64,000 nt of DNA from Devosia sp. (lineage in GTDB: Bacteria > Pseudomonadota > Alphaproteobacteria > Rhizobiales > Devosiaceae), in NCBI RefSeq assembly GCF_017744655.1, contig NZ_JAGIAW010000011.1, forward strand, positions 22,205 through 86,204. The letters are read 5' to 3'. Position numbers and translations under genes: made by a program. Of this stretch, positions 28,759-58,268 are shown one piece after another; the stretch's first letter is position 1; each line of letters opens with the position of its first letter. Below the pieces are notes generated by a model. The model was not told the DNA's origin. It did no database searches and saw nothing but the letters and a program-made list of their open reading frames with translations.

Positions 28759-29282
28759 GCGATATCTCCTGCCGTGGTCGGCAGAAAATCGGCATCGAGC
28801 CCATTGGGCGCCATATAGACCCCGCCCCGCGCCGCATCGAGAAAACGCCGCACCTGCAAGATACCGTCAAGCGAACCCGATACGACGAGGCTCAATGGTG
28901 CCTGCCCGCCAAAGAGCGGCGCATCATGCGGCCCCTTGAGCCAGCCCAATTGCGCCTGCGCATCGGCAAAGAGCACGCCCAAGGCCTGGTGCACGCCGAA
29001 TACTGCCGAAAGACGCATCAGCGCATCGACATCGAGCGTGACCTCCCCCTGCTCACGCGCCAGTTTCATCCAGTTCTGATAGGTCGAGCGGCTCGGATAG
29101 CCCAGCACCAGCCGACGCTGTTCTTCGTTGAGCCCCCAGAGATCGGCAATGGCAGCAAAGGTGCGTAGCGCCGGTGCGCTCAGCCGTCGGCGATTGGCAG
29201 GCTCAAAGCGTTCAACGCCGAGAACCTGAGCCTGACCGGCAAATGCAGCCTGCGGTGCCTCACCCAACCCAAATACGGACAT
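28749..29282 (-). CDS. Xre/MbcA/ParS-type antitoxin (DUF2384 toxin-binding domain)
   Basis: ..LWGLNEEQRRLVLGYPSRSTYQNWMK.. (HTH-like) plus a C-terminal WLKGPHDAPLFGGQAPLSLV..G..GILQVRRFLDA typical of DUF2384. AAGGAG lies 7 nt upstream of ATG 29282. Confidence 0.8.
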   Translation of the reverse strand: MSVFGLGEAPQAAFAGQAQVLGVERFEPANRRRLSAPALRTFAAIADLWGLNEEQRRLVLGYPSRSTYQNWMKLAREQGEVTLDVDALMRLSAVFGVHQALGVLFADAQAQLGWLKGPHDAPLFGGQAPLSLVVSGSLDGILQVRRFLDAARGGVYMAPNGLDADFLPTTAGDIAWR

Positions 29283-29342
29283 CTCGATCTCCTTCGAGAT
29301 CAAGATTGTCTATATTTGGACATTTGTCAAGTTTCAGACAAA

Positions 29343-35736: not shown

Positions 35737-35886
35737 GACCGGCCTTTGGACTAGCAAAAGAGTGCTTAGTTTTAACCGCGGGCAAGTTCCCAATCTTGAT
35801 CACGATCAACTCGACAGACTTATGGTGGTCTTGGTAAATTTCCGGTTTATCGGCCTAGGAACTGCCTAGATAAAGGGCAGTCCGGG

Positions 35887-37587: not shown

Positions 37588-37866
37588 GATTTTGGCCTTT
37601 TCTCCGGGGCAACAGCCGCCTATCGCCCTCTCCACGAGGCTGCTCCCAGAGGGTTAACAAAACCCTGCCTGGCAAATAGAATGTTTTTCGTATTTCGGCA
37701 GGCGATATGTAAAAAGACATATCCGGAATTAATATGACAATTTAGATCAATACTTGCTGCAACATTGCTTTGAGCAAAACTGCGTATTCACGGCTGCATC
37801 GACCATTAGCAAGTCAGGAGCGATGCTGAATGCGTCCTCTATTAAGGTACAGTCCCAGAAAATGAG

Positions 37867-37891
37867 AAGGGGCGCCATTTCGGTGCCCCTT
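37867..37891 (-). terminator. Rho-independent terminator after the dCache MCP gene
   Basis: AAGGGGC-loop-GCCCCTT. On the minus strand it is followed by CTCATTTTCT. Confidence 0.65.
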
Positions 37892-37952
37892 TGCTTTGAA
37901 AATTCTACGGATAGAAGCTTCAACTTGGTGCAGGCACGGCGTGAGGTTCCGC

Positions 37953-40361: not shown

Positions 40362-40562
40362 TTCAACGCAATTGCCTCCACACCCTTCTGGGCGGAATTC
40401 CCTCGCACAGCCCATTGCCGTCCCCCGGGCTGCGCCAAGAGAAAGCACCTGTGAAGGGCCGTCTGGTGGCCGCCGAAGCGGACCATGATTTGCAATGTCT
40501 GCGTCCGGGGCTAGCAATGCACGATTTGGGTTAAGTGCCGGTAAAGCATAAATGCAAACGAA

Positions 40563-40586
40563 GGCGGCGCCCCGAGGGACGCCGCC
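40563..40586 (-). terminator. Rho-independent terminator after MCP 40614-42650
   Basis: GGCGGCG-loop-CGCCGCC. On the minus strand it is followed by TTCGTTTGCATTT. Confidence 0.65.
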
Positions 40587-40613
40587 ATGCATGCCTGGTT
40601 ACTGGGCGAAAAA

Positions 40614-42650
40614 TCAGAACTCGTCCCAATCGGCGGCAAGTGCAGCATTGCCCCTCGATTTGAGCACTGGCGCCGCCGCCCGGGCCGGAACGACAGGCTC
40701 GGCACGGCCCCCATCCACCGTGAAGATATCGACGACCCGGTCGAGTTCAGCCGCCTGGCTTTCGGTCTGTTCGATGGCGGCATTGGTTTCTTCCACCAGC
40801 GCCGCGTTGTGCTGGGTCATCTCGTCCATCACCCGCACCGACGAGCCCACTTCCTCGATGGCCTGGGCCTGCTCCCGGCTCGCCTTTGCAATGGTCTGCA
40901 TCACCTCGGCATTGCGCGCAACGGCGTCGAGCATGCCTTCGAGCTTCTTGGCCGCGGTCGACACGAGGCGTGAGCCACCGCTGACCTCCATGGCGCTCTT
41001 CTCGATCAGATCCTTGACCTCGGCCGAGGCCTGCGCCGCCGATTGCGCGAGGCGCCGCACTTCAACGGCCACCACGGCAAAGCCCTTGCCCGCCTCTCCG
41101 GCCCGCGCAGCTTCCACCGAGGCATTGAGCGCCAGCAGATTGGTCTGGAAGGCGATGTCGTCGATCATGCCGATGATATTGGAGATCTTGGCCGAGGACT
41201 GGGTAATGCGCTCCATGGCCTCGTTGGCTTCGCCCATCACGACGCCTGTCGCCTCGGCCTCGCGCGACACGCTTTCGGCATCGGCCCCGGCCTTGCCGGC
41301 CAGTTCCGCGTTGCTGGCCACGGTTGAGGCGAGCTGTTCCATGGCGGCCGAAGTCTCCTCGATCGTCGCCGCCTGCTTGGTGGTGCGTTCACTAAGATCA
41401 TTGGCGCCCGAGAGAATTTCCCCCGTCGCCATCTTCAGCGCCCGCGAGGTGACACGCAACTGGCCGATGACATCGCAGAGCTTGTCGGCAACCCCATTGG
41501 TATCGCCGCTGAGCTTTGCAAATGCCCCCTGGTAATTCCCCGCCATGCGATGGGTCAGGTCCGCCTCGGCGAGGCGCGAGAGCACTTCCCCGGTTTCGCT
41601 GAGGCCGCGATCGACGGTTTCCACCAGCCGATTGACGCTGCCGGCGAGGCTGTTGAGCTCGGGATCGGCGAACTGGGCATGAACGCGCTTGGAAAAATCC
41701 CCGGCAATGGCCGCATCGACCACTTCACCAAAGGCTGCCTGCAGCGCAACCATCATATCGGTGCGCTCGACGCGCCGCCGCTGCGAGGCAAGCCGCTCTT
41801 CCTCGGTCATCTCGGTCATCTTGAGGCCATTGACCCTGAAAACTTCCACGGATTTGGCCATGGCGCCAACTTCATTATTGCGCGCCACATAGGGCACGAC
41901 GGCGTCGTAATCGCCGCCCGAAATGGTCTCCATCACCTTGGCCAGCCGCGGCACCGGCGCCAGCAGCAGCCGCGCCACGAAAAATCCGGCGACGCCGAGC
42001 ACGACCAGCACGCCGCCGCCCACCGCCAGGAGCAATTGCAGCAATTGCTGGATCGTGCCGTCGACCCGGGCCCGGTCGACACCGACATAGAGTATGCCCA
42101 GCGTCTTGCCGCCCTGATCGACGATAGGCTGGTAGGCAGTGTAATAGGGTCGTCCGACGATCGTCGCCTCACCGAAATAGGCCTGCCCCGCCATGACCGG
42201 CTCATAGGCCGCGCTCGCCTTGCCGAGCACGGTGCCGAGGATCCGTTCGCCCTTTTCATCGACGATCGTCGTCGTCATGCGCACAAAATCCTGCTGAGCC
42301 TCGTCCCAGCCGAAAATCGTCGCGGATTCCCCTGTCAGCCGCACGATCGAGTCGACAATGTCATGATTGAGAAACTGGCGCGGCATGGCCCAGGCGACGA
42401 GGCCTTCGAGATCGCCGGTCTCCCCCCACTTGGCCTCGGAGCCCGGCAGGTTGCCCGAAAGGATCGTTGCCGCCGTCTTGAGATTGGCGTGCTGTTGTTC
42501 GATCGCCTGCGCACGAAGTGCCGTGCCGAGGCTGGAATAAACAGCAAATGTCACGGCGCTAATGGACAGAATAATGGTCACCACAACCAGACAAACGATG
42601 GCAGAGGTAACTTTGACATCGGCAACAAAGGCCGAAATTCGGCTGAACAT
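40614..42650 (-). CDS. Methyl-accepting chemotaxis protein with a single-Cache-like (Cache_3-Cache_2 type) sensor
   Basis: Periplasmic ..[69 protein letters not shown].. with HAMP, MA domain and C-terminal ADWDEF. ATG 42650 has a GAGGGGG SD. Confidence 0.85.
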
Positions 42651-42810
42651 GAAATACCCCCTCAGGCGCTCGATTAAGACGAGTTTTTGCACTATCGGGG
42701 AATGTTAGCATTCGGCCATTAACCGAATATTATTGCTGATCTTCAGACAAAAATCCCGACCAGCGCTGGGCTGATCAGGATCAATATTGTTCGCAAACGA
42801 CTGTTATTAC

Positions 42811-44880
42811 TTAAAATTCATCCCAGTCTGCCGCGAGAGCCGTATTGCCGGCGTTCCGCGGAGCGGGCGCCCCGCCGCGTGGCGAAGCCGCGGCATACTT
42901 CTTCCTGGGTGCGCGAACACTTCCAGCGCAGTGGTCCTCGAGCCGGAAAATATCGACGATCCGGTCGAGTTCGCTGGCCTGTGCTTCGGTCTGCTCGATG
43001 GCGGCATTGGTTTCTTCCACCAGCGCCGCATTGTGCTGGGTCATCTCGTCCATCTGCCGTACGGCGGTCGAAATCTCCTCGATGGCGCCGGCCTGATCGC
43101 GACTATCGCGGGCAATGGCTTCGAGCGAGACAGTATTGTCGCGAATAGCCCCCAGCACCGACGCGAGCCTGTTCGCGGCCTCCTCTACGAGCCGCGATCC
43201 CGAGGCCACTTCGCCCGCGCTCTGCTCGATCAGCACCTTCACCTCAGCCGAGGCCTGGGCGGCCGATTGCGCGAGGCGCCGCACCTCCACCGCCACGACC
43301 GCAAAACCCTTGCCGGCATCGCCCGCCCGCGCCGCTTCCACCGAGGCATTGAGGGCAAGAAGATTGGTCTGGAAAGCGATGTCGTCAATCATGCCGATGA
43401 TGTTGGAAATCTTGGCCGAAGACTGGGTGATCCGCTCCATGGCATGGGTCGCATCCTGCATGGCGAGCCCGCCCTGCTCGGCCGTGTCGGTCACCTGCGC
43501 CGCCTTGGCGCTGGCGTCACGAGCCCGTGCCGCATTGCCCATGACGGTGGTTGCCAACTGCTCCATGGCAGCAGAGGTTTCCTCGATGGTCGCCGCCTGC
43601 CGCGTCGTGCGCTCGCTGAGATCATTGGCGCCGGAGAGGATTTCCCCCGTTGCCGCCTTCAGCGCGCCCGATGTGGTGCGGAACTGGGTGACGATATCGG
43701 TCAGCTTCTCGGCCACAGCATTGATATCGATCTTGAGCTTGGCAAAGGCGCCGCGATGTTCGCCCCGCATGCGCTGGGTCAGATCGGTATTGGCCAGCGC
43801 ATTGAGCACCATGCCAGTCTCACCGAGCCCGCGATCGACGCTCCCCACCAGCGTATTGACCGAATTGGCAAGGCCATTGAGTTCGGCATCGGGGAACTGC
43901 TCGGGCACGCGCCGCGAAAAATCCCCCTCGATGGCGGCGTCGACCACATCGCCAAAGGCGCGCTGCAAGTCGATCATCATAGCCTGACGCGCTTCAGAAT
44001 CGCGAATGATGCGCGCCGCCTCCGCCTCGGTCATCTGCGCAACTTTCAGCCCACTCTCGCGAAAGACTTCCACGGCCCGCGCCATGGCGCCAATCTCGTT
44101 GCCGCGCTGCACATAGGGCACGTCGGTTTCGAACCGTCCCTCCGCAATCGCTCCCATGGCTGCCGCAATGCGCGGCAGCGGACGGGTGATGACGAGGCTC
44201 AGGAGATAGCCGAGAACGCCCAGCACCAGCGTCGTCACTACGGCAATGGTCAGCATCAGCACCATCATGCCCTGCACCGATTGCTCGATGGCCTCAAGCG
44301 TTTCCCCGACAAGGATCGCCCCGGCCACCGCACCGTCTTCCCGCACCACCGGATAATAGGCGGCATAATAGGTCTGCCCGCCAATCTGCTCTTCGCCCAG
44401 CCACGCACGCCCTTCCTTCATGGCGGCCATGACGGCGCCCTGCGGGTCCATGATCTGGCCCTTGAGGCTGGTGCCCGCTTCATCGGCCAGCGTCGTCGTA
44501 TTGATCACCAGTTCCTTGGTGTCCTTGTCGGCAATGTAGATCGCCGTCTCACCCCCGGTGACGCGCGAAATGCCGTCGACCAGTTCGGTATCGAAGAAGG
44601 GCAGTAGCGCCCAGAGCGTCAGCTGGCCCAGCGCCCCGTCGTCTCCCCAATTGACCACGGTGCCGCCTGCCTTGTTGGTCGCCGCGGCGAAAATGGTCGC
44701 GGCGGTGCGCAGATTGGCTTCCTGGCGGTCGCGCCCCTGCTGCATCATCGTGCTGGAGAAGTTGAGGTAGATGCCGATCGCCACCACGGTAATCGAAACG
44801 ACAATGGCTGTTGTCACCAAAGTCGCAATAATAAATCTCAGGCTTAGGCGCCCGAAAAAGGCGGATACAGACCGTGCCAT
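42811..44880 (-). CDS. Methyl-accepting chemotaxis protein with a single-Cache-like sensor (paralog of 40614-42650)
   Basis: Periplasmic ..[38 protein letters not shown].. with HAMP, MA domain and C-terminal ADWDEF. Confidence 0.85.
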
Positions 44881-45064
44881 TCTTGTCCCTCGGATGAGCA
44901 GCGTGGCGCGAATCTTATTGGAGTCAAATTTAATCAAGTATTACAATGATTTAGATCGCCGTCATTTTCATTTTTGCACCCTCGCGCTGAAAATGCGGCC
45001 AATGAAATCGACATCCACGGCAGGCTTTTTCAGAACGAACTCCCCAGACGAAAATGGGGAAGGC

Positions 45065-45092
45065 CCGTTTCCGAGCCTTCCCCACCTAGAGT
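45065..45092 (-). terminator. Rho-independent terminator after MCP 45113-47623
   Basis: GGGGAAGGC-loop-GCCTTCCCC. On the minus strand it is followed by ATTTTCGT. Confidence 0.7.
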
Positions 45093-45112
45093 GAAGTCTG
45101 AGAGCGTTTTAT

Positions 45113-47623
45113 CTAGAACTCGCTCCAGTCGTCCGCTTTCACCGCCGCGCTGCCATGGCTGAGATAGGCTTTGGCAACCGACTTAAGCTTGTTCTGCAGG
45201 CCCCGCGCACCCTGAGACTGGGGTTCCGCAGGACGTGTGGCCGGAGCACTCTTGCGCCCGTCCGTCGCAAAGATATCGACGATCCCGTCAAGCTTAATGG
45301 CTTGCGCCTCCGTCTGCTCGATGGCCGCGTTCATCTCTTCCACCAGCGCCGCATTGTGCTGGGTCATTTCGTCCATCTGCCGCACCGCAGCATTGACCTC
45401 TTCGATGGACGAGGCCTGTTCGCGACTTTCCCTGGCAATGCCGTTCATCAGGTCATTGGACGAGCGCGCCGCTTCCAGCATGGCTGCGAGCTTCGAGGCC
45501 GCGTCGCTAACAAGCCGCGTACCGCCCTTCACCTCGGTGGCACTCTGCTCGATGAGCTGCTTCACATCCGAGGATGCGCTGGCCGCACTCTGGGCCAGAC
45601 GCCGCACTTCCACGGCCACAACGGCAAAACCCTTGCCTGCCTCGCCGGCCCGCGCCGCTTCAACCGAAGCATTGAGAGCCAGCAAATTGGTCTGGAAGGC
45701 GATATCGTCGATCATGCCGATGATGTTTGAAATCTTGGCCGAAGATGCGGTGATCTTCTCCATGGCCTCCGTCGCCTGCGCCATCACCTGCCCGCCGACC
45801 TCGGCAGAATTCGTCACATCGCCCGCAGCCGCACTGGCTTCCTGCGCACGCTGCGCATTCTGCAGCACGGTAGCAGCAAGCTGTTCCATCGCCGCCGAGG
45901 TCTCTTCGATCGTCGCCGCCTGCTTGGTGGTGCGTTCGCTGAGATCATTGGCCCCGGAAAGGATTTCGCCGGTCGCCGTCTTCAAGGTTCCCGAAGTCGT
46001 CCGCAATTCGCCAACCACGTCGGTCAGGCGATCGGCCACCGCATTGACGTCCGACTTGAGCCGCGCAAAGGCGCCCTCATAGTCCCCTTCCATGCGATGG
46101 GTCAAATCGGTATTGGCCAGCGCCGAGAGCACGACGCCGGTTTCGCCCACGCCACGATCCACGGTTTCCACCAGACCATTGACCGAACGCGCCAGCGCAT
46201 TGAGCTCATCATCCGGGAAATCGGCTTCCACGCGGCGCGAGAAATCCCCCGCAATGGCGGCATCCACCACATGCCCGAACGAGCGCTGCAATTTCTGCAT
46301 CATGGCAGCGCGATCCGCCTGGCCGCGAATGATTGATGCCGCTTCTGCTTCCGTCATTTCCGCCATGCGCAACCCGTTCTGGCGGAACACTTCCACCGCC
46401 CGGGCCATGGCGCCGATTTCGTCGCCGCGATGACCGCCCGATACCTCGACGGCAAGATCGCCCTCGGCCAGCGTCTCCATCGTATGGGTCAGGCGCGAAA
46501 TCGGCCGGCTGATCGAGCGGGCAAAGAAGAAGCCGAGCACTGCGGCAATGGCCAGCAGAACCCCGCCGACCAGCAGCGTCATGTTGCGCATGCTGACAAC
46601 AGGCGCGAGCGCCTCGTCTTCGGGCTGCACCGCCGTCACCGCCCAGGTCACCCCGCCCACGCTGATGGGCTCGGCCCGCACCACCATGGGGGCACCGCGA
46701 TAATCCGTGCTCATCCCCTCGCCGGTCTGGCCGGAGAAGGCTGCGGTCACCACGTCGGAGGTCAGCGCCGTGACGAGAACGTCGTCAGCCGCCGTCTTGG
46801 GCGATTCGCTGCGAAGGAGGCCATCCTGCCCCACCACCACGACTTCGCCGCTCTTGCCCATGCCCGAAAGCTCGGACACCCGGCTGCTCATCGCCGCAGG
46901 CGAAATCGCCAGCACCATGACGCCGGTATTTTCGTCCTTGTCGAAAACCGGCATGGCCATGAAACTTTGCGGCGTGCCGGTCGGGCCATAGACGGAGAAG
47001 TCGACAAAGGCGGCCGAACCATCCGGCATATCCTTGGCCGCCGTGAAGGCCTGGCCCAGGCCGGAAGCAGCCAGAACCGGGTCGGCGACGACATTGCCGG
47101 CAAAATCGATATTCTTGGCGACCGAATAGACGACGTCCCCGGTCGCGCTCACCAGCAGCACGTCGGAATAATCGCGCTCAAGTTTCAGCGTCCGGAAGCC
47201 GGGATGGAACCGCTTGTGCGGCGCGTCATAGGTCGCGCCCTTGCCATTGGCACTGTCGAGCGCCGAACGATCGTCCTGGTTCGGGTTTTCGGTGACGTAG
47301 GCGGTCTGCAATTGCAGCGCCGCGCGTTCCTTGAGCCCCATGCGCAATTCTTCGAGCGCACGCGTCAGGTTCTTCATCGCCGTGACCGTATCGGAGCGCT
47401 GCACGAAGAGCCGCAAATCCACCTCGGCGCTCGAAAAATACTCGCTCACCATGCTCGTCGCCGTGTTGAGCGAAGCCTGCATAGACTGGTCGCGCTGTTC
47501 CTCAACCGTGCCGAGGCCAATAAAATAGCTGGCAATGCCGACACCGGCACTCACCACCAGAGCCGAGCCAACCAAAGCCAATGGCAGTTTCTGCGCAATG
47601 CGCAGCTGCGGAATAAATCGCAC
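45113..47623 (-). CDS. Methyl-accepting chemotaxis protein with a large double-Cache-like periplasmic sensor
   Basis: A ~370-aa periplasmic region (..[43 protein letters not shown]..), HAMP, MA domain and C-terminal DDWSEF. GTG 47623, preceded by a G-rich SD, is proposed. There is no in-frame ATG between the 47746 ORF start and TM1. Confidence 0.8.
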
Positions 47624-47780
47624 CCTTGTTCCCCCCAAGCATGATCCGACCCAGCGGCTTTCAAGCCGGCCGCGTCCCAGCCAGCGACAGGCGCTGCGGG
47701 TCGGCAAATCTCCTTCCGCAATCGTTACATATTTAGGTTTAACCACTTATTACGGCGTCAAGGGACGTGAAAGCGGCCCG

Positions 47781-48347: not shown

Positions 48348-49394
48348 TTAAGCTGCCGAACGCAAACGAACGAGCGCATTGGCCAGTTTGGCCGCGATCT
48401 GCTCAAGCGGCGCCTGCTCGACCACTGCGCCTTCCTCGAAGGCAACGCGCGGCATGCCATAGACGAGGGCCGAAGCCTGGCTCTGCCCCACCGTATAGGC
48501 GCCGGCATCGCGCATGAGTTTCAGGCCACGGGCCCCATCGCGGCCCATGCCCGTGAGAATGGCGCCAACCGCCATATGTCCCACCGCCTTGGCCACGGAT
48601 TCGAACAGCACGTCGACGCTGGGACGATGGCCGCTGGTCAGCTCGTCCTGGCTCAACCGGCATTTCAGTTGCCCCGACGAGCGCTCGACGCGCAGGTGAT
48701 AGTCGCCGCGCGCCACATAGGCATGGCCGCGCTCGAGCACCATGCGGTCCTCGGCTTCTACAACCTTGATGGCGCAGAGTTCGTCGAGACGTGCCGCAAA
48801 GCGGCCGGTAAAGCCGGCCGGCATATGCTGGGCAATGACGATGGGCGGGCAATCCGCCGGCATATTGGTCAGAACCGCGCGGATGGCTTCGACGCCACCT
48901 GTTGATGCACCGATGGCGATGAGAGCACCGTCGGGCGCCGCCGCCGTCTTGACCGCGGCCTTGGGCGTCTCGATCCGGGTTGCGGCGCCCCGCACGTCGG
49001 TGCGCGCCGCATCGCGAATCTTGTCGCGCAGGCTTGCGCCAAAGGCATCGAGCCCGCCGGCAAATTCGGCGCTGGGCTTGGCCACGAAATCAATGGCGCC
49101 CAGTTCGAGCGCCAGCAGCGTTTCGCTCGCGCCCTTCTTGGTCAGGGTCGACACCATCACCACTGGCATGGGCCGCAAGCGCATCAGCTTTTCGAGAAAA
49201 TCGAGCCCGTTCATATTGGGCATTTCGATATCGAGCGTCACCACATCGGGGTTGAGCTGCTTGATCTTCTCGCGCGCTTCGATGGGATCGGTTGCCGTGC
49301 CGACGACATTGATGTCGCCATCGCGCGTCAGCATGCGGGTGAGCACCTCGCGAATGAGGGCCGAGTCGTCGACGACCAGAACCTTGATAGTCAT
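48348..49394 (-). CDS. cheB: Chemotaxis methylesterase/deamidase CheB
   Basis: Receiver domain (KVLVVDDSALIRE..DVVTLDIEMPNMNGL) plus methylesterase domain (IAIGASTGG.., ..IAQHMP.GFT.., ..GMGRDGA..). ATG 49394 overlaps the cheR stop. Confidence 0.9.
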   Translation of the reverse strand: MTIKVLVVDDSALIREVLTRMLTRDGDINVVGTATDPIEAREKIKQLNPDVVTLDIEMPNMNGLDFLEKLMRLRPMPVVMVSTLTKKGASETLLALELGAIDFVAKPSAEFAGGLDAFGASLRDKIRDAARTDVRGAATRIETPKAAVKTAAAPDGALIAIGASTGGVEAIRAVLTNMPADCPPIVIAQHMPAGFTGRFAARLDELCAIKVVEAEDRMVLERGHAYVARGDYHLRVERSSGQLKCRLSQDELTSGHRPSVDVLFESVAKAVGHMAVGAILTGMGRDGARGLKLMRDAGAYTVGQSQASALVYGMPRVAFEEGAVVEQAPLEQIAAKLANALVRLRSAA

Positions 49395-50233
49395 GCTGCT
49401 TCTCGTTTGTTCATCCGCTTGGATTGATAGATGGTCTTGCCCACGAGGCGGAAACCCTCGCCACCCGACCCCAGATTTTCCGAATGGCCGATATAGAGGA
49501 AGCCTTCGGGAGCCAGGAGCTTGCCGAAGCGGCCGAAAACGGCGCCCTGCGTCGGCTTGTCGAAATAGATCGCCACATTGCGACAGAAGATGGCGTCGAA
49601 CGGCCCCTTCATCGGCCATTCGGCGATGAGGTTGAGCGGCTTGAACGAGACCAGTTCGCGCGCCGCCTGCGGCACCTGCACTGTTCCGTCGCTGAGTTTC
49701 TGGAACGGCCGCGCCCGTTCGCCGCTAAGACCCGAAAGTTCGTTCTCGGGATAGATGCCGCGCGCCGCCTTGGCGATCACGGCCGTATCGATGTCAGTCG
49801 CCAGGATTTTGAAATCCCAGCGCTTGAGTTCGGGAAAGGCATTGAGCAGGTCCATGCCGATCGTATAGGGCTCCTGCCCCGTCGAACACCCGGCAGACCA
49901 GATGCGCAGGCGCTGGCCGCGCGGTCGCTCGCTCATCAGCGCGCCGACATAGGTCTTCAAATGATCGAAATGGTGATCTTCGCGATAAAAACGCGTGAGA
50001 TTGGTCGTCAGCGCATTGACGAAGTCCTGCCCGTCGCTCGCCGAAGCACCCTTTTCGAGATAGTCGACATAGTCGTCGAAACTGGACAGGTCGAGCGCCC
50101 GCACGATCTTGGACAGGCGCGATACCACCAGGGTCCGCTTGGCGTCGCTAAGGGAAATGCCGGCAACCTTGTAGACGCGGCTTTTGATCCGCGAAAACTC
50201 GCGCTCGCTGAGGGAAATTTCTCCCTGTTCCAT
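49391..50233 (-). CDS. cheR: Chemotaxis protein methyltransferase CheR
   Basis: ..LTTNLTRFYREDHHFDHL.., RIWSAGCSTGQEPYT, FCRNVAIYFD. ATG 50233 has a GGGGAAGG SD. Confidence 0.9.
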   Translation of the reverse strand: MEQGEISLSEREFSRIKSRVYKVAGISLSDAKRTLVVSRLSKIVRALDLSSFDDYVDYLEKGASASDGQDFVNALTTNLTRFYREDHHFDHLKTYVGALMSERPRGQRLRIWSAGCSTGQEPYTIGMDLLNAFPELKRWDFKILATDIDTAVIAKAARGIYPENELSGLSGERARPFQKLSDGTVQVPQAARELVSFKPLNLIAEWPMKGPFDAIFCRNVAIYFDKPTQGAVFGRFGKLLAPEGFLYIGHSENLGSGGEGFRLVGKTIYQSKRMNKREAA

Positions 50234-50404
50234 GAAACCTTCCCCGACTAACCAAGCCCTTGTCACAGAGCGGCAAGTTACCGTTCCGCGAGCATGGTCG
50301 CTTGTGCCGCGCCATGCTGTTGAGCGAAAGTCATTCTGGCCGGTTCATTCCTTAGATTGCGTAAATTCTGCCGGGAATGCCGGGCAATATTTGCGCGATG
50401 CGCC

Positions 50405-51022
50405 TTAGAAAAGTTCGATATCGTCGATGGGCGCCGGCACCACGACGCGGCGCTTGGCCAGCGCCAGTTCTTCCTTGGCGACATTGGCGCCGACATCGCT
50501 GTCGAGGCGCTTTACGAAAGCGCGGCCAGAATGGGGCTTGAAGAGCACGCGTCTGGCGAACATGCCGCCAAGATCTTCGCTCGAGGCCATATAGCCTTCG
50601 TCGGCGAGGAACTGGCGCACGAATTCGATATTCTTGGCCCCGACATCGTCGAGCGCCGAATTGATCTTGCCGCCGCCGAACACTTTGATCTCGAGGTTGG
50701 ACTTCTTGCCCGACCCTTGCGAGAGCACCTTGTTGATCAACTGCTCCATGGCAAAGGCCCCGTAGCGGGCCGAGGCGCCATACCGATCCTTGGCCGAACC
50801 CGACTGCTCGGCGAGGAGAAAATGGTTCATCCCGCCGACATTGGCGACGCGATCCCTGACGCAGGCCGAGATGCACGAACCGAGCACGGTCGAGAACGTG
50901 ACATCCTGAGCCGAAGAAACGTGGCAATCGCCCTGATGGACTGTAGTGACGATACCTCTGTCGAATTCAGGCGGCAGGGAGCTATTCTGGCCCATTTGTC
51001 TACGAATACCCGTCGAGTCCAA
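50405..51022 (-). CDS. cheD: Chemoreceptor glutamine deamidase CheD
   Basis: ..STVLGSCISACVRD..VGGMNHFLL.. and ..KVFGGG.. are CheD signatures. Alternative ATG at 50995. Confidence 0.85.
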   Translation of the reverse strand: MDSTGIRRQMGQNSSLPPEFDRGIVTTVHQGDCHVSSAQDVTFSTVLGSCISACVRDRVANVGGMNHFLLAEQSGSAKDRYGASARYGAFAMEQLINKVLSQGSGKKSNLEIKVFGGGKINSALDDVGAKNIEFVRQFLADEGYMASSEDLGGMFARRVLFKPHSGRAFVKRLDSDVGANVAKEELALAKRRVVVPAPIDDIELF

Positions 51023-51158
51023 TTGCTTCCGACCTTAGCTTTAACTCGTTAGCCAAACGCTAACCACGCCAAGCGGGGAGTCCCGATCTCGCCGCAACAG
51101 CAAGAAGCGGTTTAGAAATATTCGGATAATGTGGGCCGGTAGACCTGAGGTTATGCGT

Positions 51159-51512
51159 ATGTCATTGCAGAAGCTGGCAAGAGAGCTCGACGAGACGGCC
51201 CGTCAGTCCGCCGCAATGCTGGAAGGGATCACCGAAGCCCTCGAACTCCTGACGGACTCGACGGCCGGTAAGGACGCATCCGTGCGCCAGGGCATGATGA
51301 TGATCATCACCGCCCTCCAGGGCCAGGACCGCATCGAGCAGCGCTGCCGCAACATGGCCCTCGCCGCCCGCCAATTCTCCCTTCTGCCCCCAACGGCGCC
51401 CGAAAGCGTCTATGACGAAATCTGGCAGAGCCTCACCCTCGACGAACTCCGCGTCCCCGCCCTTTCCGGCGTCGCGGCCAACCAGGCACACGGCGAGATC
51501 GAACTGTTCTAG
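51159..51512 (+). CDS. Hypothetical small helical protein with a CheZ-like QD-x3-Q motif
   Basis: Most codons end in G/C, unlike the overlapping antisense ORF 51162-51533. GAGG lies 8 nt upstream of ATG 51159 (alternative starts at 51129 and 51153). Central motif ITALQGQDRIEQR. Function is an inference only. Confidence 0.55.
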   Translation: MSLQKLARELDETARQSAAMLEGITEALELLTDSTAGKDASVRQGMMMIITALQGQDRIEQRCRNMALAARQFSLLPPTAPESVYDEIWQSLTLDELRVPALSGVAANQAHGEIELF

Positions 51513-51637
51513 TTCGACGGTTTTCGACGCCATTTAGTCGTTCGATTTGCCTCAAGCCTGGCGGCGGAGCCCGTCAGGCAAGCAGCGGAACGTCACCCCT
51601 CCTCGCCCCTGAGGCGAAGAGGGCATTGAGGCCAGGC

Positions 51638-52063
51638 CTAGGCGAGCCTGGCGTCCAGCGTGACCTCAATGGCGCCCAGCGCCTTTGACACCGGACAATT
51701 GGCTTTCGCCTTTTCCGCCAGTTCCTGAAATTTGGCGTTGTCGATGCCGGGCACGGTTCCGACCAGGGTCAACGCGCTGCCGGTAATGCCGGTGCCGGGA
51801 ATGAGCGTGACCGCCGCCTCGATATTGAGATTGGTAGCCGGGGTACCATTCTCTGCAAGGAAATGTCCAAGCTGCATCGCGAAGCACCCCGAATGTGCCG
51901 CGGCAATCAGCTCTTCCGGATTGGTGCCCGACTTGCCGCTCTCATCAACGAACCGCCCTTTATAGGTGTAGGGCAGCGCCGAGAATGCGCCACTCTGGAC
52001 ATCCAGGGTGCCCGTGCCTTCGACAAGTGTTCCTGCCCAGTTCGCAGTAGCCGTGCGCTTCAT
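51638..52063 (-). CDS. osmC: OsmC family peroxiredoxin
   Basis: ..TNPEELIAAAHSGCFAM.. and ..AKANCPVSKAL.. are the two conserved Cys blocks of OsmC/Ohr proteins. 141 aa. Confidence 0.85.
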   Translation of the reverse strand: MKRTATANWAGTLVEGTGTLDVQSGAFSALPYTYKGRFVDESGKSGTNPEELIAAAHSGCFAMQLGHFLAENGTPATNLNIEAAVTLIPGTGITGSALTLVGTVPGIDNAKFQELAEKAKANCPVSKALGAIEVTLDARLA

Positions 52064-52170
52064 CGTGCTCTCCTCAGGTTGGATCCATGCACTTCATGGC
52101 AGCGCGAAGACTAGCAGTTGCGACCATGAAGCCCAAGCATCGACATGCGCAGGCAGTCCCACCAAACAGA

Positions 52171-52192
52171 AAGGGCGCCTTGCGGCGCCCTT
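52171..52192 (-). terminator. Rho-independent terminator after cheW
   Basis: AAGGGCGCC-loop-GGCGCCCTT. On the minus strand it is followed by TCTGTTTGG. Confidence 0.6.
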
Positions 52193-52213
52193 GTCAAACT
52201 CATGCTCGTAAGC

Positions 52214-55164: not shown

Positions 55165-55530
55165 TTAGTGGACCACGCGATGGATGACGCTGATCAGCTT
55201 GTCGGGGTCGAATGGCTTGACGATCCAGCCGGTACCGCCTGCGGCTTTGCCCTGGTCGCGCTTGTCCTGGCTCGTTTCCGTCGTGAGAATGAGGATCGGC
55301 AGGCTCTGGTACTGGCCGCTGGCCCGCACATTCTTGATGAATTCGATGCCGTCCATGACCGGCATGTTGATGTCGGTGATGACGACGTCGATATCGTGGC
55401 TCATCAGCACGTCGAGACCCTGCTTGCCGTCCTCGGCCTGCAGCACCTCAAAACCGGCATTGCTCAGGGTATGATGCAACATGGCCAGGATGGTTCTGGA
55501 ATCATCCACAGTCAGTACGCGCAATGTCAT
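55165..55530 (-). CDS. cheY: Chemotaxis response regulator CheY (CheY1/sink-type)
   Basis: Receiver domain: VLTVDDS..DVVITDINMPVMDG...ILTTE....GWIVKPF. ATGA overlap with the upstream STAS gene. Confidence 0.9.
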   Translation of the reverse strand: MTLRVLTVDDSRTILAMLHHTLSNAGFEVLQAEDGKQGLDVLMSHDIDVVITDINMPVMDGIEFIKNVRASGQYQSLPILILTTETSQDKRDQGKAAGGTGWIVKPFDPDKLISVIHRVVH

Positions 55531-55859: not shown

Positions 55860-55979
55860 CTGGAACGGTTTAAGAAGTGCTAATCGCCCGGAAGCCGGGG
55901 CTTAGCACCGTGCGACTTCCGGCGCGCTTGCCGCGGCGTGCAAGTGGCTGTAACGAGGCGGCAGTATCAGGACAACGCC

Positions 55980-57296
55980 ATGACCACCAAGATCGCCCTG
56001 ACCGGGCTCGCCCGTGACCTCGCCGCCCGCGCCGATGCGGGCAAGCCCATTCGCGTCGGCGTTATCGGCTCGGGCGAGATGGGCACCGATCTCGTCACCC
56101 AAATGAGCCTGATGAAGGGCGTGGAAATGGCTGCAATCGCCACCCGCCGGCCCCATACCGCGCTCACCGCCATGACCATCGCCTATGGCGACGATAGCCA
56201 CGGCAAGGTGGTCGACACGCCCGCTGCCGCCACGGCCGCCATCGAACAGGGCAAGATCGCCGTCACCTCGGCCGAGACCCTGGTCACGACACCCAATATC
56301 GATGTCGTCATCGACGCCACCGGCAAGCCCGGCGTCGCCGCCGACTTCTCCCTGACCGCGATGGAACACGGCAAGCATCTGGTCATGATGAATGTCGAGG
56401 CTGACGTCACCATCGGGCCCTATTTGAAGGCCCAGGCTGATCGCCTCGGCGTCGTCTATTCCGTCGGCGCCGGCGACGAACCCTCGTCCTGCATGGAGCT
56501 GATCGAATTCGTCACCGCGCTCGGCCTCGATGTGGTCGCTGCCGGCAAGGGCAAGAACAATCCACTCAAACATGATGCCGTCCCCGACGACTATCGCGAG
56601 GAAGCCATCCGCCGGAACATGAACCCCCGCATGCTGGTGGAGTTCGTCGACGGTTCAAAAACCGCCGTCGAGATGACCGCCATCGCCAATGCCACCGGCT
56701 TGATGCCCGATATTCCAGGCATGCATGGCCCGGCGACCAATCGCGAGGACATGGCCAAGGTGCTCATCCCCAAGGCCGATGGCGGGATTCTGAATTCCTC
56801 GGGCGTCGTCGACTTCACCATCGGCAAGGGTGTAGCGCCCGGCGTCTTCGTGATCGTCAAAGCCGAACATCCGCGCATTATCGAGCGCATGGACGATCTC
56901 CATATCGGCCATGGCCCTTATTATGCATTCTTCCGGCCCTATCACCTGACAAGCCTTGAAGTGCCGCTCACCTGCGCGCGCATCGTGCTCTACGGCAAGC
57001 CCGACATGGTCCCCCTCCCCCGGCCCGTCGCCGAAGTCTGCGCTGTCGCCAAGCGCGACCTGCTGCCCGGCGAACCGCTCGATGCCATTGGCGAGACCTG
57101 CTACCGCTCCTATGCGATGAGGGCAAACGATGCCCGCGCTGCCGGCGCATTGCCGGTCGGCCTCCTCGAAGGCGGCAAGGTCACAGCCCCCATTGCCAAG
57201 GGCGCACTGCTTACGACAGCAAACTGCCAGCCCGACACGTCAACGCGCCTCTTCGCTCTGCGTCGGGAGCAGGACAAGATGTTGGACTACCTCTAG
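55980..57296 (+). CDS. NAD(P)-binding oxidoreductase with SAF domain (homoserine-dehydrogenase-like, COG4091-type)
   Basis: N-terminal Rossmann motif IRVGVIGSGEMG. ..VYSVGAGDEPSSCMELIEF..GLDVVAAGKGKNN.. is typical of this family. Confidence 0.6.
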   Translation: MTTKIALTGLARDLAARADAGKPIRVGVIGSGEMGTDLVTQMSLMKGVEMAAIATRRPHTALTAMTIAYGDDSHGKVVDTPAAATAAIEQGKIAVTSAETLVTTPNIDVVIDATGKPGVAADFSLTAMEHGKHLVMMNVEADVTIGPYLKAQADRLGVVYSVGAGDEPSSCMELIEFVTALGLDVVAAGKGKNNPLKHDAVPDDYREEAIRRNMNPRMLVEFVDGSKTAVEMTAIANATGLMPDIPGMHGPATNREDMAKVLIPKADGGILNSSGVVDFTIGKGVAPGVFVIVKAEHPRIIERMDDLHIGHGPYYAFFRPYHLTSLEVPLTCARIVLYGKPDMVPLPRPVAEVCAVAKRDLLPGEPLDAIGETCYRSYAMRANDARAAGALPVGLLEGGKVTAPIAKGALLTTANCQPDTSTRLFALRREQDKMLDYL

Positions 57297-57371
57297 ATTT
57301 TCGGAAGCGCGCCACATTCTGGTCGTGCTTGCCCCTAGAAATGTTGGGGATGCCTTTCCTCGGAGCCCGAC

Positions 57372-58268
57372 ATGCGACTGCTCGGCCTTTTCGTCCTCGC
57401 CATGCCCCTGCTGCCGCTGACCGTGGCCGCTGAGCCGGCAGTCAAGACGAAGGCCTTTGCCGATTGCGCGGCATTGGTCGCCACCATGTCCGAGATCATC
57501 GTGGGTTCGAAGAGCAGCGTGGAAGACGTCGATGGCGGTTGCCGGGCGACCAATGTCCGCTACGGCGTCTCCAGCTTCATGAATTACAGCATCGATGAGG
57601 TGACGCTGCTGAGCCCGAACCTCTTGGCAACTTTTCCGACCGGCGAGATTTTCGAAGCGGCCGAACTCGTGCTCAAGGGCGTCCGCCTCAAACCGGTGAC
57701 CCATTCGCCGCTGCAGGATTATGTCCTCGCCCTTAACACCGTCGGCATGGACTTGCGGCTCGCCTACACGACCGATCCCGAAGCCCTGACCAGCCAAGCC
57801 GAGTTTGAGTTCAGCGCGGAGAAGCTGGGACGGTTTGCGGCGAAGGCTTTCCTTTCCGATTTCGACAACACCGATATCGACATCGACGACATCGCAGACG
57901 TTACGGGCAGGCTCCACCAGCTTGATTTCACGCTCGAAGACCGCGGCCTCTTCGTCGCAATCTTTGCCCCGGCCGTCCTCAATTGGTTTTTCGCCCCGGA
58001 TGAAGACCCGACCAATGCGATCATGGTCATGCAGGAAAGCGCCGTGGCGATGCTCGCCGGCCTGCCCGAAACCACCATCTCGCCCGACTCCCTTGTCGCG
58101 CTCAGTACCCTGATCCGGGCCTTTCCCCGGCCCGAGGGCGATTGGCACCTGAGCTTTTCGAGCGAGAGGGGAATTTCCGTTGACGACCTCGAGGGGAACG
58201 AAGCCACCGTCATCGCCGCAATTCTCGCAGACGCGAAAATCGCGGCGACGGGTGAGCCTGCCCGCTAG
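57372..58268 (+). CDS. Hypothetical secreted protein
   Basis: Signal peptide MRLLGLFVLAMPLLPLTVAA. 298 aa with G/C-rich third positions. No family recognised. Confidence 0.5.
   Translation: MRLLGLFVLAMPLLPLTVAAEPAVKTKAFADCAALVATMSEIIVGSKSSVEDVDGGCRATNVRYGVSSFMNYSIDEVTLLSPNLLATFPTGEIFEAAELVLKGVRLKPVTHSPLQDYVLALNTVGMDLRLAYTTDPEALTSQAEFEFSAEKLGRFAAKAFLSDFDNTDIDIDDIADVTGRLHQLDFTLEDRGLFVAIFAPAVLNWFFAPDEDPTNAIMVMQESAVAMLAGLPETTISPDSLVALSTLIRAFPRPEGDWHLSFSSERGISVDDLEGNEATVIAAILADAKIAATGEPAR

What the first reader, a model, noticed from the sequence alone, without database searches (positions are those of the whole stretch)
51159..51512. Opposite-strand small ORF inside the che cluster with a CheZ-like QD-x3-Q active-site signature
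A ~117-codon ORF sits between cheD and osmC, divergent from cheD. Most of its codons end in G/C, as in the window's real genes, while the overlapping antisense ORF does not look like protein. Its central segment A-L-Q-G-Q-D-R-I-E-Q-R lines up with the E. coli CheZ catalytic segment A-Q-D-F-Q-D-L-T-G-Q-V, where D143 and Q147 form the D-x3-Q motif. Its C-terminus ..HGEIELF is acidic/hydrophobic and ends in Phe. As far as I recall, the CheY-binding C-terminal peptide of CheZ ends ..DSLGF. The same cluster encodes a CheS-like STAS protein and two CheY proteins. That is the Sinorhizobium-type phosphate-sink design, which is generally thought to work without CheZ. A half-size CheZ-like phosphatase here would be unusual and, if real, poorly described. 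The motif is short and the match could be chance.
Basis: partly seen in the sequence, partly recalled or inferred. Interest (0 to 1): 0.7.

Follow-up and report, generated by a model that had tools for sequence, protein, structure and literature searches.

The report
Divergent CheT-like chemotaxis phosphatase gene
This small opposite-strand ORF is a real, strongly conserved gene of Devosia chemotaxis clusters. It is most likely a very divergent, still unannotated relative of CheT, the mini "CheZ-like" CheY phosphatase described in Sinorhizobium in 2024.

Summary
The ORF at 51159-51512 (+) is a real gene. GC3 is 0.83, dN/dS is 0.02-0.16 against orthologues, and there are 895 homologue clusters, almost all 117 aa and annotated "hypothetical protein" in Devosia and Maritalea.

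Its position is fixed in every Devosiaceae locus read: cheS-cheY1-cheA-cheW | ORF on the opposite strand | cheD-cheR-cheB-cheY2. The osmC gene is a local insertion.

Across members as low as 34% identical, Q54, D57, R58, Q61, R62 and the terminal F117 are invariant, so the D-x3-Q motif is conserved. Paralogues outside che clusters lack both the motif and the tail.

The protein is not a CheZ family member. It has no Pfam, NCBIfam or PDB-sequence hit, and no Foldseek hit, although genuine CheT also fails Foldseek.

The closest known protein is CheT of S. meliloti. NCBI's CheT model does not detect the ORF. Profile-profile comparison does (E about 1e-4; score 30.3 against 11.0±2.2 for shuffles). 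It aligns D57/Q61 of both families and both C-termini. The AlphaFold layouts match.

The most likely function is a CheT-type phosphatase of CheY1~P with a tethering tail. Notably, CheD carries the same C-terminal tail (DDIELF against GEIELF).

Verdict: new, divergent member of a known kind. Moderate interest.

The parts
51159..51512 (+). cheT-like gene: 117 codons plus stop. Predicted helices at residues 2-32, 38-74, 82-90 and 95-98, with a disordered tail at 100-117.
   Evidence: ORF and translation. 895 homologue clusters, almost all 117 aa. dN/dS 0.02-0.16. AF2 model with pLDDT 85. hhalign to CheT gives E 1e-4.
51312..51344 (+). Codons A52-R62 (ALQGQDRIEQR). This is the putative catalytic stripe Q54, D57, R58, Q61, R62 on helix 2, with D57 at 51327-51329 and Q61 at 51339-51341.
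   Evidence: These columns are invariant in A1 and in close homologues. They are absent from the non-che paralogues. They align with D57/Q61 of CheT and D56/Q60 of the Rhodobacterales form.
51492..51509 (+). C-terminal tail G112-E-I-E-L-F117. Family consensus is [GDA]-[DE]-x-[ED]-[LFM]-F at the carboxyl end of a disordered linker. It is a putative docking peptide.
   Evidence: F117 is invariant and E115 nearly so. pLDDT is below 50 for residues 109-117. The same tail occurs on CheD. It aligns with the GDFEAF / GDFDFF tail of CheT.
51023..51158 (.). Divergent intergenic region between cheD and the ORF. It would be 50996-51158 if cheD starts at the ATG used in orthologue gene calls. It contains the conserved palindrome GTTAGC-N5-GCTAAC at 51048-51064.
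   Evidence: The region aligns across five Devosiaceae loci, and TTAGCCAAnCGCTAACCA is the best-conserved block. The palindrome is unique in the window. No sigma-70 consensus site was found.
50405..51022 (-). cheD (receptor deamidase). It is the divergent neighbour of the ORF. Its roughly 30-aa C-terminal extension ends in DDIELF, the same tail motif as the ORF.
   Evidence: Pfam CheD 3e-24 covers residues 69-172 only. The tail is DDIELF in all five Devosiaceae loci. It is 42% identical to S. meliloti-type CheD, with the tails aligned.
55165..55530 (-). cheY1-like response regulator, the phosphate-sink type. It is the inferred substrate.
   Evidence: Response_reg 1.6e-27. 59% identity to the CheY1 of the S. 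meliloti-type locus L002. The assignment as substrate is inferred from the CheT literature.
49391..50266 (-). cheR methyltransferase. It is the inferred second partner, because CheT binds CheR in S. meliloti.
   Evidence: Pfam CheR plus CheR_N. The partnership is inferred from PMC12654446 and was not tested here.

Best explanation
The ORF encodes a divergent, Devosiaceae-specific form of the alphaproteobacterial chemotaxis protein CheT.

Shown:
- It is a conserved 117-aa protein under purifying selection.
- It is locked into a CheS / CheY1 / CheA / CheW / CheD / CheR / CheB / CheY2 cluster.
- It is predicted to form a two-helix hairpin (residues 2-32 and 38-74), followed by short helices and a disordered tail.
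- An invariant polar stripe (Q54, D57, R58, Q61, R62) lies on the second helix, and the C-terminus is invariantly ...E-L-F.

Inferred mechanism:
- As in CheZ and CheT, the helix docks on phosphorylated CheY.
- D57 pairs with the conserved active-site lysine, and Q61 positions the hydrolytic water. This speeds dephosphorylation.
- The substrate is most likely the sink regulator CheY1 (55165-55530), so the sink empties faster and the signal ends sooner.

Inferred role of the tail:
- The flexible tail acts as a tether. CheD carries the same tail, and the local receptors end in DWDEF.
- The tail therefore probably docks both proteins on a shared partner in the adaptation machinery. CheR is the published CheT partner.
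- The alternative is that it binds CheY, as the CheZ C-terminal peptide does.

The gene is transcribed on its own from a divergent promoter region shared with cheD. That region carries a conserved palindromic operator.
For: Real gene:
- GC3 is 0.83.
- dN/dS is 0.02 and 0.16, with changes concentrated at third positions.
- There are 895 homologue clusters.

Fixed context:
- The same inverted position between cheW and cheD is seen in L081 (36% identical), L088, L089 (Maritalea type) and L090. L087, a short contig, shows the convergent cheW side only.

Motif tied to chemotaxis:
- D57-x3-Q61 and the terminal F are invariant in che-linked members.
- Both are missing in paralogues that lie next to an HD-GYP-type gene or in other non-che contexts.

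Link to CheT:
- Genuine CheT was retrieved downstream of cheD in 80 Rhizobiaceae-type loci. NCBI names it 'chemotaxis protein CheT', and it scores 226.8 bits on NF047973.
- hhalign of the Devosiaceae profile against the CheT profile gives E 1.2e-4 to 2.1e-4 and probability 46-56%. Adding two Rhodobacterales sequences gives 61%.
- That alignment places ALQGQDRIEQRCRNLA on VLQGIDLAVQKTRGLA and GEVELF on GDFDFF.
- The score is 30.3. It is 11.0±2.2 (maximum 17.9) for 160 column-shuffled controls and 12.2 for the reversed control.
- The Devosiaceae HMM, run against 12,803 ORFs of the Rhizobiaceae loci, ranks CheT ORFs on top almost exclusively.
- A third group (Rhodobacterales plasmid che clusters, motif LQDFDLxxQ) bridges the two: CheT against it gives probability 89% and E 2e-6, and the ORF family against it gives E 0.006. 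The same motif columns align in all three comparisons.

Same architecture:
- In the AF2 models of both the ORF and S. meliloti CheT, helix 2 ends at residue 74 and carries D57/Q61. A coil at 75-81, a third helix and a disordered tail follow.

Orthologous cluster:
- CheY1 is 59% identical to its S. meliloti-type counterpart, CheY2 42% and CheD 42%.

Published function of CheT:
- PMC12654446.
Against: - NCBI's CheT model NF047973 gives no hit at E<=1 for the window ORF or for two other Devosiaceae members.
- The reciprocal HMM (CheT family against all window ORFs) does not find the ORF.
- Pairwise BLASTP gives E 0.33.
- hhalign probabilities are only moderate, and the ORF family against the Rhodobacterales group gives only 6%. 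Both alignments are shallow (Neff 2-3.6).
- The N-terminal helix aligns only at low confidence.
- R58 and R62 are invariant here, where CheT has L58 and K62 and CheZ has Leu/Val. The contact surface may therefore differ.
- I could not check whether Devosia genomes also carry a canonical CheT elsewhere.
- No activity, binding or expression data exist for this protein.
- As I recall the abstract of the 2024 paper, even for S. meliloti CheT the reported rate enhancement is modest. That paper is not held here.
Confidence: 0.68

Rival explanations
1. It is a CheT relative whose main job is not catalysis. It would be a small adaptor that uses its tail and hairpin to bridge CheR / CheD (adaptation) with CheY or the receptor array. 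The D-x3-Q stripe would be a binding surface rather than an active site.
For: - CheD and the ORF share the C-terminal motif (DDIELF against G[DE]xELF) in every Devosiaceae locus. The Rhizobiaceae pair also shares a Phe-terminal acidic tail.
- The receptors in the window end in DWDEF / DWSEF, the classical CheR/CheB tether.
- CheT binds CheR in S. meliloti.
- Invariant R58 and R62 have no counterpart in CheZ.
Against: - The D and Q are absolutely conserved at i and i+4, as in proven phosphatases. They are lost exactly in the paralogues that left che clusters.
- CheT itself is reported to have phosphatase activity as well as binding CheR, so the two roles are not exclusive.
Confidence: 0.15
2. 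It is an unrelated, lineage-specific small helical protein that only resembles CheT / CheZ by convergence or chance. It would have another role in the cluster, for example a regulator of che gene expression or a partner of CheD analogous to CheC.
For: - No curated model (Pfam, NCBIfam CheT, PADLOC not tried) recognises it.
- Foldseek sees only generic hairpins.
- The gene has its own orientation and promoter, unlike cheT in Rhizobiaceae.
- It stays adjacent to cheD despite the rearrangement.
Against: - The profile-profile score is far above both shuffled and reversed controls. It is colinear from the motif to the last residue.
- Alignment through a third group is consistent.
- Length, helix boundaries and motif numbering match CheT.
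- No DNA-binding or other domain was detected.
Confidence: 0.1
3. It is a genuine but truncated, half-size member of the CheZ family.
For: - It has the D-x3-Q motif, plus A52 and Q56 at the positions of the CheZ AxxFQ motif.
- The motif lies on the second helix of a hairpin.
- The C-terminus ends in Phe, as CheZ does.
Against: - No member hits Pfam CheZ.
- A PDB profile search finds no CheZ.
- hhalign against 1KMI gives E 0.33 and aligns the wrong region.
- The conserved Phe of AxxFQ is Gly, Ala or variable here.
- The hairpin is about half the length of CheZ's.
Confidence: 0.03
4. It is not a gene. The ORF would be a chance open frame in GC-rich DNA, or the real gene would be the antisense ORF 51162-51533.
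For: Long ORFs occur on both strands here, as elsewhere in this 62% GC window.
Against: - The third-position substitution pattern and dN/dS of 0.02-0.16 fit the + frame.
- The composition of the + frame is gene-like.
- Length, start and stop are conserved in hundreds of homologues.
Confidence: 0.01

Closest known systems
CheT of Sinorhizobium meliloti / Atu0522 of Agrobacterium fabrum (NCBIfam NF047973; Agbekudzi et al. 2024, Mol Microbiol 122:429, summarised in PMC12654446)
   Same: - Size is similar: about 117-130 aa.
- It belongs to the same type of cluster (CheS, two CheY, CheD) and lies next to cheD.
- LQGxDxxxQ[KR] sits at the same residue numbers (Q54, D57, Q61) on the second helix.
- The predicted helix layout is the same.
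- Both have a disordered tail ending in acidic-x-acidic-x-Phe.
- The profile-profile match is E about 1e-4.
   Different: - Identity is only about 20%, and the curated CheT HMM does not detect the ORF.
- The gene is inverted, lies between cheW and cheD, and has its own promoter. In Rhizobiaceae, cheT is the last gene of the operon.
- R58 and R62 are invariant here, against L58 and K62 in CheT.
- The tail is xELF, identical to the local CheD tail, rather than DFEAF / DFDFF.
- Activity is untested.
CheZ (E. coli, PDB 1KMI; Pfam PF04344; alphaproteobacterial CheZ of Azorhizobium caulinodans, PMC7750401)
   Same: - A D-x3-Q pair lies on the C-terminal helix of a helical hairpin.
- It partly matches the adjacent AxxFQ motif (A52 and Q56).
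- A flexible linker is followed by a C-terminal peptide ending in Phe.
- The presumed job is to accelerate CheY~P hydrolysis.
   Different: - It is half the size.
- No sequence or profile similarity was found.
- No Foldseek match was found, though genuine CheT also gives none.
- The Phe of AxxFQ is missing.
- It occurs in a phosphate-sink system with two CheYs.
Unnamed 109-aa 'hypothetical protein' after cheY2 in Rhodobacterales plasmid che clusters (Tritonibacter WP_106164731.1, Leisingera WP_024092567.1)
   Same: - It is a small helical protein in a CheS / CheY / CheA / CheW / CheR / CheY cluster.
- LQDFDLxxQ aligns to the same columns.
- A VTLxxLR block aligns with LTLDELR.
   Different: - It has no C-terminal Phe tail.
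- It is co-oriented with the operon.
- It is closer to CheT (probability 89%) than to the Devosiaceae family (E 0.006).
CheC / CheX / FliY phosphatases with the CheC-CheD partnership of Bacillus and Thermotoga; Spo0E-type hairpin phosphatases (from my own knowledge)
   Same: - They are auxiliary response-regulator phosphatases that insert an amide or acid side chain from a helix into the receiver active site.
- CheC works together with CheD. Here the gene stays linked to cheD.
- Spo0E is likewise a small helical hairpin.
   Different: - They have different folds and motifs: CheC/X/FliY use D/S-x3-E-x2-N, and Spo0E uses SQELD.
- No sequence similarity was detected in the Pfam scans.

Membership tests
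CheT (alphaproteobacterial chemotaxis protein, NCBIfam NF047973) | Matches the curated CheT HMM (cut-off 200 bits) | tested here: not met
   The window ORF, L089 and L081 members give no hit at E<=1. Controls: S. meliloti-type CheT scores 226.8 bits, and the Hoeflea-like CheT scores 115.6 bits.
CheT (alphaproteobacterial chemotaxis protein, NCBIfam NF047973) | Detectable homology to CheT sequences | tested here: met
   The evidence is weak but above controls.
- hhalign gives E 1.2e-4 to 2.1e-4 and probability 46-61%.
- The score is 30.3, against 11.0±2.2 for 160 shuffles and 12.2 for the reversed control.
- The family HMM ranks CheT ORFs first among 12,803 ORFs, best E 0.15.
- The reciprocal HMM and BLASTP fail.
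CheT (alphaproteobacterial chemotaxis protein, NCBIfam NF047973) | DXXXQ motif on a predicted alpha-helix | tested here: met
   D57 and Q61 are invariant. They lie in helix 38-74 of the AF2 model, where pLDDT is above 90. They align with CheT D57/Q61.
CheT (alphaproteobacterial chemotaxis protein, NCBIfam NF047973) | Small (about 13 kDa) helical protein with the CheT helix layout | tested here: met
   ORF model: H2-32, H38-74, H82-90, H95-98, tail disordered. CheT model: H14-33, H35-40, H48-74, H85-102, tail disordered.
CheT (alphaproteobacterial chemotaxis protein, NCBIfam NF047973) | Encoded in a cheS-cheY1-cheA-cheW-cheR-cheB-cheY2-cheD type cluster, next to cheD | tested here: met
   All components are present. 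The ORF is adjacent to cheD in all four longer Devosiaceae loci, but on the opposite strand and between cheW and cheD. In Rhizobiaceae, cheT follows cheD on the same strand.
CheT (alphaproteobacterial chemotaxis protein, NCBIfam NF047973) | Accelerates dephosphorylation of CheY1~P but not CheY2~P | not testable with these tools
   This needs purified proteins. It is known only for S. meliloti CheT.
CheT (alphaproteobacterial chemotaxis protein, NCBIfam NF047973) | Binds the methyltransferase CheR | not testable with these tools
   No complex prediction is available here. The pentapeptide-like tail is only suggestive.
CheZ (Pfam PF04344) | Matches the CheZ profile or CheZ sequences | tested here: not met
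   No Pfam CheZ hit for any of 19 members at E<=10. A PDB sequence search with the family profile finds no CheZ. hhalign against 1KMI_Z gives E 0.33.
CheZ (Pfam PF04344) | Long helical-hairpin / four-helix-bundle fold | tested here: inconclusive
   The model is a hairpin but about half as long. Foldseek against PDB has best E 0.83, with CheZ not in the top 50. The positive control (genuine CheT model) also fails to retrieve CheZ, so the test has no power. Dimerisation could not be modelled.
CheZ (Pfam PF04344) | Catalytic D143/Q147 (DxxxQ) preceded by AxxFQ | tested here: inconclusive
   DxxxQ is present and invariant. A52 and Q56 match the A and Q of AxxFQ. The Phe position is Gly here and varies in the family.
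CheZ (Pfam PF04344) | C-terminal amphipathic peptide that binds CheY | not testable with these tools
   A disordered tail ending in ...GEIELF exists. Its partner is unknown. The same tail on CheD argues for a partner other than, or in addition to, CheY.

The most novel reading that the evidence does not exclude
The carboxy-terminal [DE]-x-[ED]-[LF]-F tail, carried at the end of a disordered linker by both the CheT-like protein and CheD, may be a second class of 'pentapeptide' tether.

The tails vary by lineage. In Devosiaceae they are GEIELF and DDIELF. In Rhizobiaceae they are DFEAF / DFDFF and SIEFF.

The tail would dock both enzymes on the same site that receptor DWxEF pentapeptides use, on CheR or CheB, or on another shared array component. 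A CheY~P phosphatase and the receptor deamidase would then be recruited to, and compete within, the adaptation machinery. That would physically couple signal termination to adaptation in phosphate-sink chemotaxis systems.
Probability: 0.3. Interest if true: 0.6.

Novelty: new member of a known kind. Interest (0 to 1): 0.4.

Why it matters
Phosphate-sink chemotaxis systems were long thought to need no dedicated CheY phosphatase. CheT changed that view in 2024, but so far only for Rhizobiaceae.

This work suggests that CheT-like proteins are more widespread and more divergent than the curated model captures:
- Hundreds of Devosiaceae genes now labelled 'hypothetical protein' could be annotated.
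- The comparison across three lineages isolates a minimal conserved core, LQxxDxxxQ, for mutagenesis.
- The tail shared by the CheT-like protein and CheD offers a concrete, testable handle on how CheT is linked to CheR and to adaptation.

It does not reveal a new kind of system.

Tried and rejected
Searches with no informative result:
- Pfam and NCBIfam scans of the ORF gave only noise: AraC_binding_2, DUF1441 and Pan1, all far below cut-off.
- A Pfam scan of all 19 family members gave scattered coiled-coil-type noise, including weak WXG100_2 hits, and no CheZ.
- A PDB sequence search with the family profile gave only coronavirus-spike heptad repeats and designed coiled coils, which is compositional noise.
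- Foldseek against PDB gave only generic hairpins for the ORF. Running genuine CheT as a control showed that this test cannot detect CheZ-likeness at all.
- tblastn of the ORF against PLSDB plasmids found nothing.
- phmmer against 1.84 billion representative proteins found only 44 clusters. None is a Rhizobiaceae CheT, so the link is beyond single-sequence reach.
- The CheT HMM against window ORFs gave no hit.
- Sigma-70 promoter and intrinsic terminator scans of 50950-51700 found nothing.
- Rfam on 50900-52200 found nothing.

Leads dismissed:
- A weak second hit of the family HMM at 28367-28714 (+) overlaps a RES-toxin gene on the other strand.
- The 127-aa start at 51129 was rejected.

Not available:
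- The original CheT paper is not held, so its content is taken from the 2025 review and from my memory of the abstract.
- A fused-chain complex prediction was considered. I dropped it because the tool returns no interface information and accepts only native sequences.
Full report
**1. The observation**

It has ATG at 51159, a stop at 51510-51512 and 117 codons on the + strand. It lies between cheD (50405-51022, minus) and an OsmC peroxiredoxin gene (51638-52063, minus). An upstream in-frame ATG at 51129 is not conserved, and nearly all homologues are 117 aa.

The coding evidence is strong:
- GC by codon position is 0.67/0.43/0.83, like the che genes around it. The overlapping antisense ORF has 0.81/0.44/0.68.
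- Against orthologous DNA, dN/dS is 0.02 (L090, 98% aa identity; 33 of 37 differences at third positions) and 0.16 (L088, Devosia chinhatensis, 79%).
- A search of 5.8 billion proteins found 895 homologue clusters. The named ones are 'hypothetical protein' of Devosia species.

The window is therefore from a Devosia. The closest named hit is D. crocina at 90%.

**2. The family and its context**

The family is narrow. Reading all 1.84 billion representative proteins with phmmer gave only 44 clusters. The named ones are Devosia and Maritalea.

In 19 che-type members, down to 34% identity, only ten columns are invariant: M1, E9, T13, Q54, D57, R58, Q61, R62, E96 and F117. The D-x3-Q pair, its flanking arginines and the terminal Phe are thus the most conserved features of the protein.

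In every longer locus I could read, the gene sits in the same place. These are L081 (36% identical), L088, L089 (Maritalea type) and L090. The order is STAS(CheS)-CheY-CheA-CheW, then this gene on the opposite strand, then CheD-(MCP)-CheR-CheB-CheY. The short contig L087 shows the convergent cheW side only.

The slot between its 3' end and cheW is variable. It is empty in three loci, holds osmC in the window, and holds a periplasmic-binding-protein gene in L090. So osmC is an insertion and not part of the system.

A more distant subfamily (P0150, P0151, P0153, P0156, P0158, P0162, P0163) keeps the helices but lacks both D-x3-Q and the -ELF end. Its members lie outside che clusters, for example upstream of an HD-GYP-type gene. 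The motif and the tail therefore travel with the chemotaxis context.

**3. Is it CheZ?**

No test supports membership:
- Pfam CheZ is not hit by any of the 19 members, even at E<=10.
- A family profile finds no CheZ among PDB sequences.
- hhalign against E. coli CheZ gives E 0.33 and aligns other regions. I confirmed that CheZ sequence as identical to 1KMI chain Z, with D143 and Q147.

The AF2 model (pLDDT 85) is a helical hairpin (helices 2-32 and 38-74), followed by two short helices and a disordered tail. Foldseek returns only generic hairpins.

As a control I modelled genuine S. meliloti CheT. It also fails to retrieve CheZ. The fold search therefore has no discriminating power here.

CheZ proteins carry AxxFQ directly before DxxxQ (PMC7750401), and the ORF has A52 and Q56 at the matching positions. 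However, Gly replaces the conserved Phe.

**4. Is it CheT?**

The literature held here shows that rhizobial che operons end with cheT. As summarised in PMC12654446, its product:
- has a DXXXQ motif and a CheZ-like predicted structure;
- enhances dephosphorylation of only one of the two CheY~P;
- binds CheR.

In 2021 it was still 'uncharacterised' (PMC8429497).

I retrieved the gene by fetching 80 Rhizobiaceae-type loci with the S. meliloti CheY2 sequence (verified against PDB 1P6Q). A 109-131-aa ORF follows cheD in all of them. It carries [LMVIF]QG[IV]DL[AT]VQK and the tail GDFEAF / GDFDFF. NCBI names it 'chemotaxis protein CheT', and it scores 226.8 bits on NF047973.

Evidence against a link:
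- The Devosiaceae ORFs do not hit NF047973.
- BLASTP gives E 0.33.
- The CheT HMM does not find the ORF in the window.

Evidence for a link:
- hhalign of the two family profiles gives E 1.2e-4 to 2.1e-4 and probability 46-56%. It aligns ALQGQDRIEQRCRNLA with VLQGIDLAVQKTRGLA, LTLDELR with LVKLADM, and the two C-termini. At low stringency the N-terminal helices also align: L..ELeETA with L..ELhDVA.
- The score is 30.3. Column-shuffled controls (160) give 11.0±2.2 with a maximum of 17.9, and the reversed control gives 12.2.
- The Devosiaceae HMM ranks CheT ORFs first among 12,803 ORFs of the Rhizobiaceae loci.
- A third group acts as a bridge. It was found by tblastn on plasmids of Tritonibacter and Leisingera, as a 109-aa gene after cheY2 with LQDFDLxxQ. 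CheT against this group gives probability 89% and E 2e-6. The ORF family against it gives E 0.006. The same motif columns align in all three comparisons. Adding two of its sequences to the CheT profile raises the match with the ORF family to probability 61%.
- The two AF2 models have the same layout. Helix 2 ends at residue 74 in both and carries D57/Q61 in both.
- The surrounding genes are clear orthologues: CheY1 59%, CheY2 42% and CheD 42% identical.

I conclude that the ORF is probably a fast-evolving homologue of CheT (about 0.75). By the curated model's criterion it is not a recognised member.

**5. Mechanism**

Shown:
- It is a conserved hairpin protein with an invariant polar stripe at i, i+3, i+4, i+7 and i+8 (Q54, D57, R58, Q61, R62) on helix 2.
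- A disordered linker is followed by an invariant Phe-terminal acidic tail.

Inferred from CheZ and CheT:
- Helix 2 docks on CheY~P.
- Q61 orients the attacking water, and D57 pairs with the active-site Lys.
- The likely substrate is the sink regulator CheY1.

The tail. I found that CheD of every Devosiaceae locus ends in DDIELF, at the end of a roughly 30-aa extension beyond the CheD domain. In Maritalea the ORF's own tail is also DDIELF. Rhizobiaceae CheD ends in [STA][IV]EFF, and CheT ends in DF[ED][AF]F, with the variants DLDFF, DIDLF and DFDLF. Five MCPs in the window end in DWDEF or DWSEF.

A tail shared by a phosphatase and a deamidase points to a common docking partner. CheR, the published CheT partner, or CheB are the obvious candidates, but this is inference. 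Position -4 of the tail is variable (I, V, A, P, C), unlike the essential Trp of receptor pentapeptides. That is a caution.

**6. Expression**

The gene is divergent from cheD. Their shared intergenic region contains the best-conserved non-coding block of the locus, TTAGCCAAnCGCTAACCA, which is the palindrome GTTAGC-N5-GCTAAC at 51048-51064. It is conserved from Devosia to Maritalea and L081, and it is unique in the window. From my own knowledge it resembles a CtrA box (TTAA-N7-TTAAC / TTAACCAT) with two mismatches. This is untested. No sigma-70 consensus, terminator or Rfam family was found.

**7. Verdict**

- The functional reading ('small CheZ-like phosphatase in a sink system') is plausible, and the motif conservation supports it.
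- The family assignment should be CheT-like, not CheZ.
- The concept was published in 2024. This is therefore a new, highly divergent and currently unannotated member of a known kind.
- Two modestly new points emerge: the inverted, separately promoted gene arrangement, and the tail shared with CheD.

Interest 0.4.

Noticed in passing
window 51048-51064 (within intergenic 51023-51158): The palindrome GTTAGC-N5-GCTAAC (block TTAGCCAAnCGCTAACCA[CT]) lies in the divergent cheD / cheT-like promoter region. It is conserved in Devosia, Maritalea and the distant locus L081, and it is unique in the window. It resembles a CtrA box with two mismatches (my knowledge). It may be the operator for both genes.
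   Followed up: partly
window 50405-50500 (3' end of cheD); L081, L088, L089, L090; L001-L080 about 6900-6940: Alphaproteobacterial CheD has a roughly 30-aa C-terminal extension beyond the Pfam CheD domain. It ends in DDIELF in all Devosiaceae loci and in [STA][IV]EFF in Rhizobiaceae. This mirrors the tail of the neighbouring CheT or CheT-like protein in the same lineage.
   Followed up: partly
window 51513-52213 (osmC at 51638-52063); L090 7355-9143: The convergent gap between the cheT-like gene and cheW is an insertion slot. It holds osmC here and a Peripla_BP_4 gene in a 98%-identical relative. It is empty in L081, L088 and L089. The OsmC gene is therefore not part of the che system.
   Followed up: yes
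window 34126-47746 (minus strand): Five MCP genes lie in a row downstream of cheY2. Their sensors are dCache, sCache_3, PDC and protoglobin types. All end in the CheR/CheB-tethering pentapeptide DWDEF or DWSEF. The one at 34126-35799 is a protoglobin (HemAT-like) receptor.
   Followed up: partly
L083 7292-7651, L084 5387-5746, L091 702-1001, L092 364-717: A paralogous subfamily of the same small helical protein lacks D-x3-Q and the -ELF tail. It lies outside che clusters. In two loci it is directly upstream of an HD_5/HD (HD-GYP-type) gene. In one contig a CHASE2-GGDEF-EAL gene lies about 1.9 kb downstream. Its function is unknown.
   Followed up: partly
L093 6983-7312 (Tritonibacter plasmid), L094 6866-7192 (Leisingera plasmid): Rhodobacterales plasmid-borne che clusters (STAS-CheY-CheA-CheW-CheR-CheY) end with an unannotated 109-aa gene carrying LQDFDLxxQ. 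It is a CheT relative (hhalign probability 89%) that NCBI labels 'hypothetical protein'.
   Followed up: partly
window 28087-29303 (minus strand): This is a RES-domain toxin (28087-28758) with an overlapping Xre/MbcA/ParS-type antitoxin (28749-29303), a typical RES-Xre toxin-antitoxin pair.
   Followed up: partly
P0124, P0125, P0130, P0139, P0141, P0133 (homologues): Several database 'homologues' of odd length share the N-terminal part or the motif and then diverge into unrelated sequence. They are probably frameshifted or chimeric gene calls on short metagenomic contigs, not real fusions.
   Followed up: no
window 55902-56573 and 57240-58148 (minus strand): Long ORFs just upstream of cheS have no Pfam hit. 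In relatives this position holds a + strand DRL_cat / NAD_binding_3 gene, so these minus-strand ORFs are probably shadows of the 55938-57296 (+) gene.
   Followed up: no
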